Assembly: GCF_056746865.1 (NCBI RefSeq)
Contig: NZ_CM163382.1
DNA length: 64,000 nucleotides
Reading direction: 5' to 3' (one strand)
Part shown: positions 17,477 to 23,935 of the stretch, one piece after another
How positions within the stretch are numbered: the first letter of the stretch is position 1
How the letters are laid out: the number at the start of each line of letters is the position of its first letter
The notes under the pieces: generated by a model
Database searches by the model: none
What the model was told of the DNA's origin: nothing
What the model saw: only the letters and a program-made list of their open reading frames with translations
Translations under genes and position numbers: made by a program

Positions 17477-18406
17477 ATGGAACGACTAAAACGCATGTCG
17501 GTGTTTGCCAAAGTAGTTGAATTTGGCTCTTTTACCGCCGCCGCCAGACAGCTACAGATGAGCGTTTCGTCCATCAGTCAGACGGTGTCAAAACTGGAAG
17601 ATGAGTTGCAGGTAAAGCTGTTAAACCGTAGCACACGCAGCATTGGCCTGACCGAAGCCGGCAGAATTTACTACCAGGGCTGCCGTCGGATGCTCCATGA
17701 AGTGCAGGATGTTCATGAGCAACTGTATGCCTTCAATAACACCCCCATCGGGACGCTGCGCATTGGCTGTTCTTCAACTATGGCACAAAATGTTCTCGCC
17801 GGGCTGACAGCAAAAATGCTGAAAGAATACCCAGGTTTGAGCGTCAATCTGGTTACCGGAATTCCTGCCCCCGACCTGATTGCCGACGGTCTGGATGTGG
17901 TGATCCGCGTCGGCGCGTTGCAGGATTCCAGCCTGTTTTCCCGCCGTCTGGGCGCGATGCCAATGGTGGTGTGCGCCGCGAAAAGCTATCTCACACAATA
18001 CGGCATACCGGAAAAACCCGCCGATTTAAGTAGTCATTCATGGCTTGAATACAGCGTGCGACCCGACAATGAATTTGAACTGATCGCACCGGAAGGGATC
18101 TCGACTCGCCTGATCCCGCAAGGGAGATTTGTGACTAATGATCCGATGACGCTGGTGCGCTGGCTGACTGCAGGCGCTGGGATCGCCTATGTGCCGCTGA
18201 TGTGGGTGATCAACGAGATCAATCGCGGGGAGCTGGAGATCCTGCTGCCACGTTACCAGTCAGATCCACGCCCGGTTTATGCGTTATATACCGAAAAAGA
18301 TAAGCTGCCGCTGAAGGTACAAGTCGTGATCAACTCGCTAACGGATTATTTTGTTGAGGTCGGTAAATTGTTTCAGGAGATGCACGGGCGCGGGAAAGAG
18401 AAGTAA
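17477..18406 (+). CDS. aaeR: AaeR, LysR-family activator of aaeXAB
   Basis: 309-aa ORF with N-terminal LysR HTH (MERLKRMSVFAKVVEFGSFTAAARQLQMSVSSISQTVSKLE...), divergent from aaeXAB. Confidence 0.94.
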   Translation: MERLKRMSVFAKVVEFGSFTAAARQLQMSVSSISQTVSKLEDELQVKLLNRSTRSIGLTEAGRIYYQGCRRMLHEVQDVHEQLYAFNNTPIGTLRIGCSSTMAQNVLAGLTAKMLKEYPGLSVNLVTGIPAPDLIADGLDVVIRVGALQDSSLFSRRLGAMPMVVCAAKSYLTQYGIPEKPADLSSHSWLEYSVRPDNEFELIAPEGISTRLIPQGRFVTNDPMTLVRWLTAGAGIAYVPLMWVINEINRGELEILLPRYQSDPRPVYALYTEKDKLPLKVQVVINSLTDYFVEVGKLFQEMHGRGKEK

Positions 18407-18454
18407 TTAATATTATACTGTTACGTTGTACAAACCTGTGCCAACGGGTTCCCC

Positions 18455-18492
18455 TCACCCTAATCCCAGAGGGGCGAGGGGACCGTTCGTGC
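18455..18492. terminator. GC-rich imperfect inverted repeat between convergent aaeR and tldD, probable terminator
   Basis: CCCCTCACCC...GGGGCGAGGGG read directly; function inferred from position only. Confidence 0.4.
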
Positions 18493-18533
18493 ACGTAAAA
18501 GGATTAATTATCCTTCTGAAAATACTGAAATTA

Positions 18534-19994
<1,461 letters not shown>

Positions 19995-20023: not shown

Positions 20024-20062
20024 GCTGCCGGATGCGGCGTGAACGCCCTATCCGGCCTACGG
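20024..20062. repeat. REP (repetitive extragenic palindrome) element
   Basis: GCCGGATGCGGCGTGAACGCCCTATCCGGCCTACG matches the classic E. coli REP consensus. Confidence 0.7.
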
Positions 20063-23100: not shown

Positions 23101-23935
23101 GCGTATGCGTTTGCTTCTCGCCCAACCAGCTGGCACCGCCCTGTTTCAGCCAGACGTCACCGCCGGTTACATCGCCTTTGTCGATCGTCATCCAGCCTTC
23201 AAGGGAGAACTGTGCCGTTTCCAGCGCAATATTGTCCTGCATCCATTTACCGAGCCACGGCTTCAGGTCGATGTCATCCGCCTGGAGCCAGACGCGACCA
23301 TTGCTTAACAACCCCTCATCATCGCGCAAATCCATGCGCACCTGCATCACGCCGTGCTGTCCGGTAAGGCTGGAGAGGCTTACCAGGCCTTCTGCACGGT
23401 GTCGACGTGGATCGTTCAGCCAGGTGAGTTGTGGGATCGCCAGCTCGGCGCGCTGACCGGATGGCGTCAGGAAACTGACTTCACTGTCGCGGAGATCAAA
23501 ATGGTCGAACTGACGAAGAAACAGATCGCTGATGTGACTGGCTTCCAGGCTATCATTACCACCGCCGCTGGTGATAGGAGTGTTGGTGCGAAAGCGCAGC
23601 TGCCAGAAAGTGAGGTCGCGAAACTGCCAGCGCATATGTAACAGGCTCTGCCAGACATCTAGCGCAAGAGTAACGCGTTTAACCGAAAATTCGCCGCCAT
23701 CCTTTAGTTCTGCACGGATGTCGTGTGCTTCAAGCGTCGGGCCAAAATTCTGCCAGCTGGCTGAGAGCTGACTGGCTTCTACCGGCATGCCAGTCGCGGA
23801 TTCTATTTTGTTGAGGATTTCCGGACGCCAGGCATCAAGATGCGGTAAAGCAATACGCAGGCCGCTAACCAGCAGGGCAGCGATCACAACGAGCGCGGCT
23901 CCAGTAAGCAGTAATATCCCCGGCAATCGCCTCAC
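20135..23935 (-). CDS. yhdP: YhdP, AsmA-like inner-to-outer-membrane phospholipid transport protein
   Basis: 1266-aa ORF with N-terminal membrane anchor; recognised as YhdP. Confidence 0.94.
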   Translation of the reverse strand: MRRLPGILLLTGAALVVIAALLVSGLRIALPHLDAWRPEILNKIESATGMPVEASQLSASWQNFGPTLEAHDIRAELKDGGEFSVKRVTLALDVWQSLLHMRWQFRDLTFWQLRFRTNTPITSGGGNDSLEASHISDLFLRQFDHFDLRDSEVSFLTPSGQRAELAIPQLTWLNDPRRHRAEGLVSLSSLTGQHGVMQVRMDLRDDEGLLSNGRVWLQADDIDLKPWLGKWMQDNIALETAQFSLEGWMTIDKGDVTGGDVWLKQGGASWLGEKQTHTLSVDNLTAHITRENPGWQFSIPDTRITMDGKPWPSGALTLAWIPEQDVGGKDNKRSDELRIRASNLELAGLEGIRPLAAKLSPALGDVWRSTQPSGKINTLALDIPLQAADKTRFQASWSDLAWNQWKLLPGAEHFSGTLSGSVENGLLTASMKQAKMPYETVFRAPLEIADGQATISWLNNDKGFQLDGRNIDVKAKAVHARGGFRYLQPANDEPWLGILAGISTDDGSQAWRYFPENLMGKDLVDYLSGAIQGGEADNATLVYGGNPQLFPYKHNEGQFEVLVPLRNAKFAFQPDWPALTNLDIELDFINDGLWMKTDGVNLGGVRASNLTAVIPDYSKEKLLIDTDIKGPGKAVGPYFDETPLKDSLGATLQELQLDGDVNARLHLDIPLNGELVTAKGEVTLRNNSLFIKPLDSTLKNLSGKFSFINGDLQSEPLTASWFNQPLNVDFSTKEGAKAYQVAVNLNGNWQPAKTGVLPEAVNEALNGSVAWDGKVGIELPYHAGATYNVELNGDLKNVSSHLPSPLAKPAGEPLPVNVKVDGNLNSFELTGQAGADNHFNSRWLLGQKLTLDRAIWAADSKTLPPLPEQSGVELNMPPMNGAEWLALFQKGAAESVGGAASFPQHITLRTPMLSLGNQQWNNLSIVSQPTANGTLVEAQGREINATLAMRNNAPWLANIKYLYYNPSVAKTRGDSTQSSPFPTTERINFRGWPDAQIRCAECWFWGQKFGRIDSDITISGNTLTLTNGLIDTGFSRLTADGEWVNNPGNERTSLKGKLRGQKIDAAAEFFGVTTPIRQSSFNVDYDLHWRKAPWQPDEATLNGIIHTQLGKGEITEINTGHAGQLLRLLSVDALMRKLRFDFRDTFGEGFYFDSIRSTAWIKDGVMHTDDTLVDGLEADIAMKGSVNLVRRDLNMEAVVAPEISATVGVAAAFAVNPIVGAAVFAASKVLGPLWSKVSILRYHISGPLDDPQINEVLRQPRKEKAQ

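What the first reader, a model, noticed from the sequence alone, without database searches (positions are those of the whole stretch)
18455..18492. GC-rich imperfect palindrome (CCCCTCACCC...GGGGCGAGGGG) between convergent aaeR and tldD
A 10-bp stem with one mismatch made almost entirely of C and G runs sits between two convergent genes. It lacks the flanking U-tracts of a textbook intrinsic terminator and does not match the REP consensus seen at 20024-20062. It could be a member of another small intergenic repeat family, a Rho-dependent or structure-only terminator, or a protein-binding site. I could not name the element with confidence.
Basis: seen in the sequence. Interest (0 to 1): 0.25.

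Follow-up and report, generated by a model that had tools for sequence, protein, structure and literature searches.

The report
Degenerate BoxC repeat hairpin, aaeR–tldD spacer
The GC-rich palindrome is a partly deleted copy of BoxC (also called PIT or TMECO), a known E. coli intergenic repeat, and it most likely acts only as a stable RNA hairpin marking the 3' ends of the two converging genes, so it is ordinary.

Summary
The palindrome is real. Its arms lie at 18450-18460 and 18472-18482, and the extended hairpin spans 18438-18494 between aaeR (+) and tldD (-). It is not a new element. The orthologous K-12 site is catalogued as BoxC/PIT/TMECO copy no. 14 (Holder et al. 2015, Table 1). A profile built from 12 other K-12 copies hits only this place in the window (E 3e-13). 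E. coli genomes carry a median of 14-18 related places.

The window allele has a 6-bp deletion that removes most of the middle block, so it fails the three-block "triplex" pattern. The hairpin is unchanged (about -32 to -34 kcal/mol on either strand). About half of 5,426 E. coli genomes carry this short form. An outgroup Escherichia species carries the long form.

Published K-12 data place RNA 3' ends of both aaeR and tldD at the base of this hairpin, and a Rho-dependent termination region further downstream on the tldD strand. Other BoxC copies also carry 3' ends. There is no U-tract.

Best reading: a repeat-derived, U-less hairpin that defines and protects the 3' ends on both strands. The identification is near certain; the mechanism is inferred. 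Novelty: already known. Interest is low.

The parts
18439..18503 (+). Full match to the BoxC (PIT/TMECO) type-A repeat family, written in the C-rich orientation; this is the only copy in the window
   Evidence: nhmmer with a profile of 12 other K-12 copies: 44.7 bits, E 3.2e-13, with a 6-column deletion. The orthologous K-12 site is TMECO no. 14 at 3,390,494-3,390,529.
18451..18460 (+). C-rich block 1 (CCCCTCACCC), the left arm of the hairpin
18461..18463 (+). TAA linker, which defines 'type A' elements (TTA on the G-rich strand)
   Evidence: (type definition)
18464..18467 (+). Remnant (TCCC) of C-rich block 2. Six bases (CCCTCT/CCCTCA) are deleted relative to K-12, Escherichia sp. E1V33 and all other family copies, and there is a C>T change.
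   Evidence: alignments
18471..18481 (+). G-rich block (GGGGCGAGGGG), the right arm of the hairpin
18482..18495 (+). Family-conserved 3' flank (ACCGTTCGTGCACG; family consensus GACYGTYCGTGC). It supplies the right halves of the outer stems.
   Evidence: fold
18438..18447 (+). Left halves of the outer stems (GTGC, C, AACGG) that extend the hairpin to 18438-18494
   Evidence: RNA folds on both strands
18492..18492 (+). Position equivalent to the K-12 aaeR mRNA 3' terminus (MG1655 3,390,541, peak 533-545)
   Evidence: Bar et al. 2023 Suppl. Data 3 and 2. The coordinate was transferred through the alignments and was not measured in this strain.
18439..18439 (-). Position equivalent to the main K-12 tldD mRNA 3' terminus (MG1655 3,390,482, peak 479-489)
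   Evidence: coordinate transferred by alignment, not measured in this strain
17477..18406 (+). aaeR (LysR-type activator), the upstream convergent gene
18534..19979 (-). tldD (metalloprotease), the convergent gene on the other strand

Best explanation
The element is the aaeR-tldD copy of the E. coli BoxC repeat family, also called PIT element or TMECO. It is carried here as a derived 'short' allele. A 6-bp deletion, probably slippage between CCC microrepeats, removed most of the middle block. The canonical three-block motif with intrastrand-triplex potential is therefore lost, while the two outer blocks still form the same long GC-rich hairpin. When either strand is transcribed, the hairpin (18438-18494, no U-tract) most likely sets the steady-state 3' end of the aaeR mRNA on the + strand and of the tldD mRNA on the - strand. 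RNA polymerase reads through the element. Rho terminates further downstream, at least on the tldD strand, and 3'->5' exonucleases trim back to the base of the hairpin. This is the same role known for REP elements and other U-less stem-loops. Shown: family identity, orthology, the deletion, its population frequency, conservation of the hairpin, RNA 3' ends at the hairpin base in K-12, and a downstream Rho-dependent region in K-12. Inferred: that the same ends form in this strain with the short allele, that trimming rather than direct termination makes them, and that this effect is under selection.
For: Identity:
- K-12 TMECO no. 14 (CCCTCGCCCCTTTGGGGTGAGGGTTAGGGTGAGGGG, 3,390,529-3,390,494) lies exactly in the aaeR-tldD spacer and aligns to the window apart from a 6-bp gap and 2 substitutions.
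- The profile of 12 other copies gives E 3.2e-13.
- The family is dispersed, with a median of 14 (short-allele query) or 18 (K-12 query) places per E. coli genome.

Hairpin kept, triplex lost:
- The TMECO pattern fails in the window even with 1 mismatch per block. K-12 and Escherichia sp. E1V33 pass.
- MFE is -32.5 (short) vs -32.0 (long) kcal/mol on the + strand and -34.2 vs -35.9 on the - strand.

3' ends:
- TRS/RNAtag-seq termini annotated 'Primary' lie at 3,390,482 and 3,390,499 (-) for tldD and at 3,390,541 (+) for aaeR. They recur in a second data compilation.
- Two of them, 3,390,482 (-) and 3,390,541 (+), fall 1-2 nt inside the two edges of the extended hairpin.

Rho:
- A Rho termination region lies at 3,390,148 (-), antisense to aaeR, with Rho score 5.99 and p 5.5e-18.

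Generality:
- 3' ends also sit beside BoxC copies at hemB, alx and glnH.
- Term-seq ends lie at 624,567, 632,098, 847,200 and 4,231,270.

Model:
- U-less stable stem-loops protect Rho-terminated transcripts from PNPase and RNase II (Dar & Sorek 2018).

Comparative:
- In 54 of 57 species where aaeR and tldD are convergent neighbours, the spacer folds to <= -10 kcal/mol on both strands. The hairpin is a simple one, a REP-type element or a BoxC-type element.
Against: - No RNA data exist for a strain with the short allele.
- The curated Term-seq list of Adams et al. has no 3' end in this spacer. These genes are weakly expressed, so this is weak evidence.
- Hoyne & Maher 2002, as summarised by Holder et al., found no promoter or terminator activity for PIT elements. 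This argues against direct termination but not against an exonuclease barrier.
- The core is invariant among copies, so covariation gives no support for the structure (0 of 11 pairs covary).
- Any stable hairpin will stop exonucleases, so the effect may be incidental to a selfish or neutral repeat.
- The TRS peaks are about 10 nt wide, and the sequence columns of that supplement appear offset from their legend.
Confidence: 0.7

Rival explanations
1. It is a decaying, functionless remnant of a selfish or neutral repeat. The RNA 3' ends are an unavoidable by-product of any stable hairpin and are not selected.
For: The locus is highly polymorphic, with short and long alleles each in about half of E. 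coli genomes and further point variants. Copy number varies from 2 to 35 places per genome. Other Escherichia species have REP elements or unrelated sequence at this spacer. Holder et al. found TMECO loci unusually variable and saw no functional bias in the neighbouring genes.
Against: The deletion and the observed variants leave the hairpin energy intact. Nearly all related genera keep some strong hairpin at this spacer. RNA ends map to it on both strands. This rival concerns origin and selection and does not exclude the molecular effect described in the best explanation.
Confidence: 0.3
2. It is an intrastrand DNA triplex (PIT/TMECO) element acting at the DNA level, for example by stalling polymerase or promoting genomic instability.
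For: The family was defined by this potential. The K-12 consensus forms a triplex in vitro, and TMECO loci are more rearranged between strains. The 6-bp deletion seen here could itself be a product of such instability.
Against: This allele lacks the middle block and fails the three-block pattern even with 1 mismatch per block, so the class II triplex cannot form. In vivo DMS footprinting in K-12 did not show protection (section 17 text). Half of E. coli genomes carry the two-block form.
Confidence: 0.05
3. It is a bidirectional intrinsic (Rho-independent) terminator serving both convergent genes.
For: It is a GC-rich stem-loop between convergent genes, and RNA 3' ends lie just past the stem on both strands in K-12.
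Against: There is no U-tract on either strand and the consensus scan finds no terminator there. Bicyclomycin increases read-through about 6-fold on the tldD strand downstream of the element. PIT elements showed no terminator activity in reporter tests, as cited.
Confidence: 0.1
4. It is a binding site for a DNA- or RNA-binding protein, such as an operator or a nucleoid-associated site.
For: It is a palindromic, highly conserved core present in many copies per genome.
Against: No binding protein is reported in the literature searched. The neighbouring genes share no function.
Confidence: 0.03

Closest known systems
BoxC repeat = PIT (potential intrastrand triplex) element = TMECO (Bergler 1992; Hoyne et al. 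2000; Holder et al. 2015)
   Same: It occupies the same chromosomal site as K-12 copy no. 14. It has the same outer C-block, TAA linker, G-block and conserved 3' flank. It is intergenic and multi-copy.
   Different: The middle block is reduced from 10 nt to 4 nt by a 6-bp deletion, so the defining three-block pattern is not met. It is a two-block hairpin derivative of the kind Holder et al. call 'TMECO mutated'.
REP/BIME elements as mRNA 3' stabilisers
   Same: Both are dispersed intergenic palindromes. When transcribed, both form stable hairpins lacking a U-tract. Both are associated with downstream Rho termination and trimmed 3' ends. REP-type elements occupy this very spacer in E. whittamii, Citrobacter and Salmonella.
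   Different: There is no sequence similarity to the REP consensus. The arms are strongly purine/pyrimidine-asymmetric. No RAYT/TnpA-REP-type mobilising enzyme is known for BoxC.
[quoted passage not shown]
   Same: It is a stable stem-loop with no uridine tract, the steady-state 3' end lies directly downstream of it, and Rho dependence lies further downstream.
   Different: The hairpin here comes from a repeat family and works on both strands. Exonuclease dependence was not tested at this locus.
Bidirectional intrinsic terminators between convergent genes
   Same: A single palindrome between convergent genes has 3' ends on both strands.
   Different: It lacks the A-tract/U-tract pair that makes such terminators Rho-independent.

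Membership tests
BoxC / PIT / TMECO | Orthology to a catalogued copy (same flanking genes, alignable spacer) | tested here: met
   K-12 TMECO no. 14 at 3,390,494-3,390,529 lies between aaeR (ends 3,390,449) and tldD (ends 3,390,583). The spacers are 95% identical.
BoxC / PIT / TMECO | Significant similarity to other family copies, including the flanks | tested here: met
   nhmmer profile from 12 other K-12 type-A copies: E 3.2e-13, window 18439-18503. The right flank GACCGTTCGTGC matches the family consensus.
BoxC / PIT / TMECO | Three-block pattern CCCTCNCCC-N3-6-GGGNGAGGG-N3-GGGNGAGGG (Holder et al. 2015) | tested here: not met
   A regex on both strands finds no match with 0 or 1 substitution per block. 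K-12 and Escherichia sp. E1V33 alleles match with 0. The cause is a 6-bp deletion in the middle block.
BoxC / PIT / TMECO | Dispersed, multi-copy and intergenic | tested here: met
   Median 14 places per genome with the window element and 18 with the K-12 element across 5,426 E. coli genomes. The 13 K-12 loci inspected (the type-A copies and their paired type-B partners) are all intergenic.
BoxC / PIT / TMECO | Forms an intrastrand triplex as single-stranded DNA | not testable with these tools
   This needs CD, NMR or melting experiments. By sequence, the third strand is missing in this allele.
REP / BIME | REP consensus (…CTTATCMGGCCTAC and its inverted partner) | tested here: not met
   Pattern search with up to 2 mismatches finds only 20047-20060 and 23379-23392, and nothing at 18438-18494.
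Intrinsic (Rho-independent) terminator | GC-rich stem-loop followed directly by a U-rich tract | tested here: not met
   The stem is present. The tails are CCGTTCGTGCACG on the + strand and ACCCGTTGGCACAG on the - strand. The consensus scan reports no site in the spacer.
Intrinsic (Rho-independent) terminator | Termination independent of Rho | tested here: inconclusive
   Published K-12 data show a Rho-dependent region about 330 nt downstream on the tldD strand. There is no data for the + strand and no in vitro test.
Protective 3' stem-loop of Rho-dependent transcripts | Steady-state RNA 3' end immediately 3' of a stable U-less stem-loop | tested here: met
   Met for the K-12 ortholog only: termini at 3,390,482 (-) and 3,390,541 (+) at the base of the hairpin. 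This was not measured for the short allele.
Protective 3' stem-loop of Rho-dependent transcripts | 3' end depends on PNPase/RNase II trimming | not testable with these tools
   This needs Term-seq in pnp and rnb mutants.
Any Rfam RNA family | Match at gathering score | tested here: not met
   The best hit is Antizyme_FSE at 19.9 bits against a gathering score of 40, E 0.22, which is spurious.

The most novel reading that the evidence does not exclude
BoxC elements as a family may be bidirectional RNA 3'-end-defining and stabilising hairpins, functionally equivalent to REP, and the hairpin rather than the much-discussed DNA triplex may be what is maintained. Three observations point this way. 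Half of the E. coli population has lost the third block at this locus without any loss of hairpin stability. RNA 3' ends sit at the base of BoxC copies at several loci. The same spacer in other genera is always filled by some strong hairpin. A specific prediction follows: the inner tldD terminus seen in K-12 (3,390,499), about 8 nt after the C-block:G-block-1 hairpin, should be absent in short-allele strains.
Probability: 0.4. Interest if true: 0.35.

Novelty: already known. Interest (0 to 1): 0.15.

Why it matters
The finding matters little on its own. It has modest wider value. BoxC/PIT/TMECO has had no accepted function since the 1990s, and the discussion has centred on DNA triplexes. Published 3'-end maps, read against the repeat coordinates here, suggest a simpler RNA-level role as a U-less 3' hairpin on both strands. 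The natural short and long alleles at this locus offer a ready-made test that separates hairpin from triplex.

Tried and rejected
- Rfam scan of the spacer at a permissive E-value gave only spurious sub-threshold hits.
- The consensus promoter/terminator scan found nothing in the spacer.
- A search for further copies in the 64-kb window by pattern, mismatch search and profile found none.
- A covariation test on 14 family copies was uninformative, because the core is invariant and the flanks have no consensus outer stem.
- The REP hypothesis was rejected by pattern search.
- Literature searches for later work on TMECO or intrastrand-triplex function found nothing beyond Holder et al. 2015. A first search on 'box C' mostly returned snoRNA and pneumococcal BOX papers.
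- Supplementary tables of Dar & Sorek 2018 and of four other papers are not held as text.
- The Adams et al. curated Term-seq list has no entry in this spacer.
- My automatic ORF walk failed for E. albertii. Manual reading shows different sequence downstream of aaeR, with no BoxC in the stretch read and no convergent long ORF within 400 nt.
- I did not enumerate all copies in the window's own strain, because only the best place per record is listed.

Full report
**Observation.** The window sequence at 18440-18499 reads gccaacgggt tcccctcacc ctaatcccag aggggcgagg ggaccgttcg tgcacgtaaa.
- The inverted repeat has arms at 18450-18460 and 18472-18482 (11 nt, one mismatch, 11-nt loop).
- RNA folding of either strand extends the stem outward, through AACGG 18443-47 / CCGTT 18483-87 and GTGC 18438-41 / GCAC 18491-94. 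This gives a 57-nt hairpin of -32.5 kcal/mol on the + strand and -34.2 on the - strand, with z-scores of -3.7 and -4.2.
- The block pattern occurs once in the window and never in 100 shuffles.
- The element lies between aaeR (17477-18406, +) and tldD (18534-19979, -).
- Neither strand has a T-run after the stem, and the consensus scan finds no terminator-like site in the spacer.
- Rfam gives nothing meaningful. A REP motif search hits 20047-20060 but not this site.

**What it is.**
- The element is single-copy in the window.
- The 47-nt element finds a median of 14 places per genome (up to 25) across 5,426 complete E. coli genomes. The K-12 version finds a median of 18 (range 2-35). It therefore belongs to a dispersed repeat family.
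- Holder et al. 2015 (PMC4666352) study this family under three names: BoxC (1990s), PIT element (Hoyne/Maher 2000-2002) and TMECO. They define it as CCCTCNCCC-N3-6-GGGNGAGGG-N3-GGGNGAGGG.
- Their Table 1 lists 23 copies in MG1655. Copy no. 14, CCCTCGCCCCTTTGGGGTGAGGGTTAGGGTGAGGGG at 3,390,529-3,390,494 on the minus strand, lies exactly in the K-12 aaeR-tldD spacer, where aaeR ends at 3,390,449 and tldD at 3,390,583.
- The K-12 and window spacers align at 95% identity apart from one 6-bp gap.
- I fetched 12 other K-12 type-A copies with their flanks and put them in one orientation. They share an almost invariant core..TTC CCCTCACCC TAA CCCTCTCCCC ARA GGGGCGAGGGG, and a conserved right flank, GACYGTYCGTGC. 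The window carries this flank too.
- A profile built from those 12 copies, leaving out this locus, hits the window only at 18439-18503 (44.7 bits, E 3.2e-13) with a 6-column deletion.

**The allele.**
- In the window the middle block (CCCTCTCCCC in the family, CCCTCACCCC in K-12) is reduced to TCCC.
- The closest other short alleles read TAA-CCCC-AGA. This is what deletion of CCCTCT between CCC microrepeats would leave (inference).
- As a result the window fails the three-block TMECO pattern even with one substitution allowed per block. K-12 and Escherichia sp. E1V33 pass without mismatch.
- The hairpin is unaffected. MFE is -32.5 (short) vs -32.0 (long) on the + strand and -34.2 vs -35.9 on the - strand.
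- Identity bands give about 2,700 records with the short form (at least 90% identity to the window element) and about 2,720 with the long form (84.9%, the 6-bp indel). The reciprocal query agrees roughly.
- For polarity I fetched the orthologous spacer from 80 species. Escherichia sp. E1V33 has the full three-block element in a homologous 133-nt spacer, so the long form is ancestral by parsimony.
- E. whittamii, two other Escherichia lineages, Citrobacter and Salmonella have REP-type elements there instead. Several Enterobacter species have BoxC-type elements in the same spacer. Most other genera have a 30-45-nt spacer made of one simple GC-rich hairpin.
- Among the 57 species where aaeR and tldD are convergent neighbours, 54 spacers fold to <= -10 kcal/mol on both strands.
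- Holder et al. describe such degenerate 'TMECO mutated' alleles as common and link TMECO loci to local instability.

**How it most likely works.** According to Holder et al., earlier reporter tests found no promoter or terminator activity for PIT elements. Published 3'-end maps nevertheless put RNA ends at this element.
- Bar et al. 2023 (PMC10687069, Suppl. Data 3, LB RNAtag-seq) list 'Primary' termini for tldD at 3,390,482 (-; peak 479-489; adjusted p 2e-11 to 4e-28) and 3,390,499 (-), and for aaeR at 3,390,541 (+; peak 533-545). The same ends recur in their analysis of other datasets.
- Their gene coordinates match NC_000913.3.
- Transferred through the alignment, the ends correspond to window positions 18439 (-), 18456 (-) and 18492 (+). 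The two outer ends thus fall 1-2 nt inside the two edges of the extended hairpin.
- The inner end lies about 8 nt after the alternative K-12 hairpin formed by the C-block and the middle block. The short allele cannot form that hairpin.
- Adams et al. 2021 (PMC7815308, Supp. file 2) report a Rho termination region at 3,390,148 on the minus strand, antisense to aaeR, with Rho score 5.99 and p 5.5e-18. Transcription on the tldD strand therefore passes the element and is stopped by Rho further on.
- This matches the model of Dar & Sorek 2018, in which stable stem-loops without U-tracts define the steady-state ends of Rho-terminated transcripts by blocking PNPase and RNase II.
- Other BoxC copies behave alike. 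3' ends lie beside the hemB, alx and glnH copies. Curated Term-seq ends lie about 10 nt past the G-block at 624,567, 632,098, 847,200 and 4,231,270.
- Six of the 13 K-12 loci I inspected lie between convergent genes.

**Limits.**
- No RNA data exist for a short-allele strain.
- TRS peaks are about 10 nt wide, and the sequence columns in that supplement look offset from their legend.
- The curated Term-seq list of Adams et al. has no entry in this spacer.
- The core is invariant, so covariation says nothing for or against the structure.
- Any stable hairpin stops exonucleases, so the effect may be incidental to a selfish or neutral repeat.
- I put family identity at about 0.97 and the 3'-end hairpin mechanism at about 0.6.

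**Rivals.**
- A DNA triplex role is excluded for this allele by sequence.
- A canonical intrinsic terminator is unlikely, because there is no U-tract and there is Rho-dependent read-through downstream.
- A protein-binding site has no support.
- 'Functionless remnant' remains compatible with all the data as a statement about selection, but not about molecular effect.

**Verdict.** It is an already catalogued repeat, carried here as a common deletion allele. Novelty: already known. Interest is low (0.15). The only mildly new point is that the hairpin, not the triplex, appears to be what persists and what marks RNA 3' ends.

Noticed in passing
window 18497-18518: A second, AT-rich hairpin (AAAAGGAT TAATT ATCCTTCT) lies between the BoxC element and the tldD stop codon. 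On the tldD strand it folds as an 8-bp stem directly after the stop and is not followed by a U-tract. Its role is unknown.
   Followed up: partly
In K-12 the TRS data place an RNA 3' end at 3,392,117 beside the orthologous REP, annotated as the 5' UTR of tldD.
   Followed up: partly
L019-L098 (aaeR-tldD spacers of 80 species): The same spacer is occupied by different repeat families in different lineages: BoxC in E. coli, Escherichia sp. E1V33 and several Enterobacter; REP/PU-type in E. whittamii, Citrobacter and Salmonella; a single simple hairpin elsewhere. Some simple hairpins resemble BoxC arms, e.g. ATCCTCTCCCCGCAGGGAGAGGAT (L095, L097) and TCCCCTCGCGAGCGCGAGGGGA (L090).
   Followed up: partly
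L009, L011, L012 (K-12 fepB-entC, ygfF-gcvP, alx-sstT): Type-A and type-B BoxC copies occur as inverted pairs about 25 nt apart. Several solo type-A copies (adk-hemH, fimH-gntP, and weakly aaeR-tldD) keep part of that inter-element spacer (…GTGCTGGCCTGTTC) on their left. Solo copies may therefore derive from the paired form.
   Followed up: no
L003 (E. coli strain 4/4, tusA-zntA spacer): In a few genomes (8 records in the 60-80% identity band) the best match to the element is a different family copy. In strain 4/4 it is the one between convergent tusA and zntA. The aaeR-tldD copy may therefore be missing or further degraded there.
   Followed up: no
L023 (E. albertii NBRC 107761), 2130-2420: Downstream of aaeR the sequence is unrelated to the E. 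coli spacer, and no convergent long ORF lies within 400 nt, so the neighbourhood seems rearranged in this species.
   Followed up: no
K-12 3,390,148 (-), equivalent to about window 18105, inside aaeR antisense: A published Rho termination region lies antisense to aaeR (Adams et al. 2021). This implies that tldD-strand transcription normally invades the 3' part of aaeR before Rho stops it.
   Followed up: partly
Bar et al. 2023 Supplementary Data 3: The 'Fold seq' and 'U-tract seq' columns seem to end at, or be shifted about 10 nt from, the stated 'Dominant' coordinate rather than spanning -40/+10 as the legend says. I judged this from well-known terminators such as thrL and satP. This matters when reading exact 3'-end positions.
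   Followed up: partly
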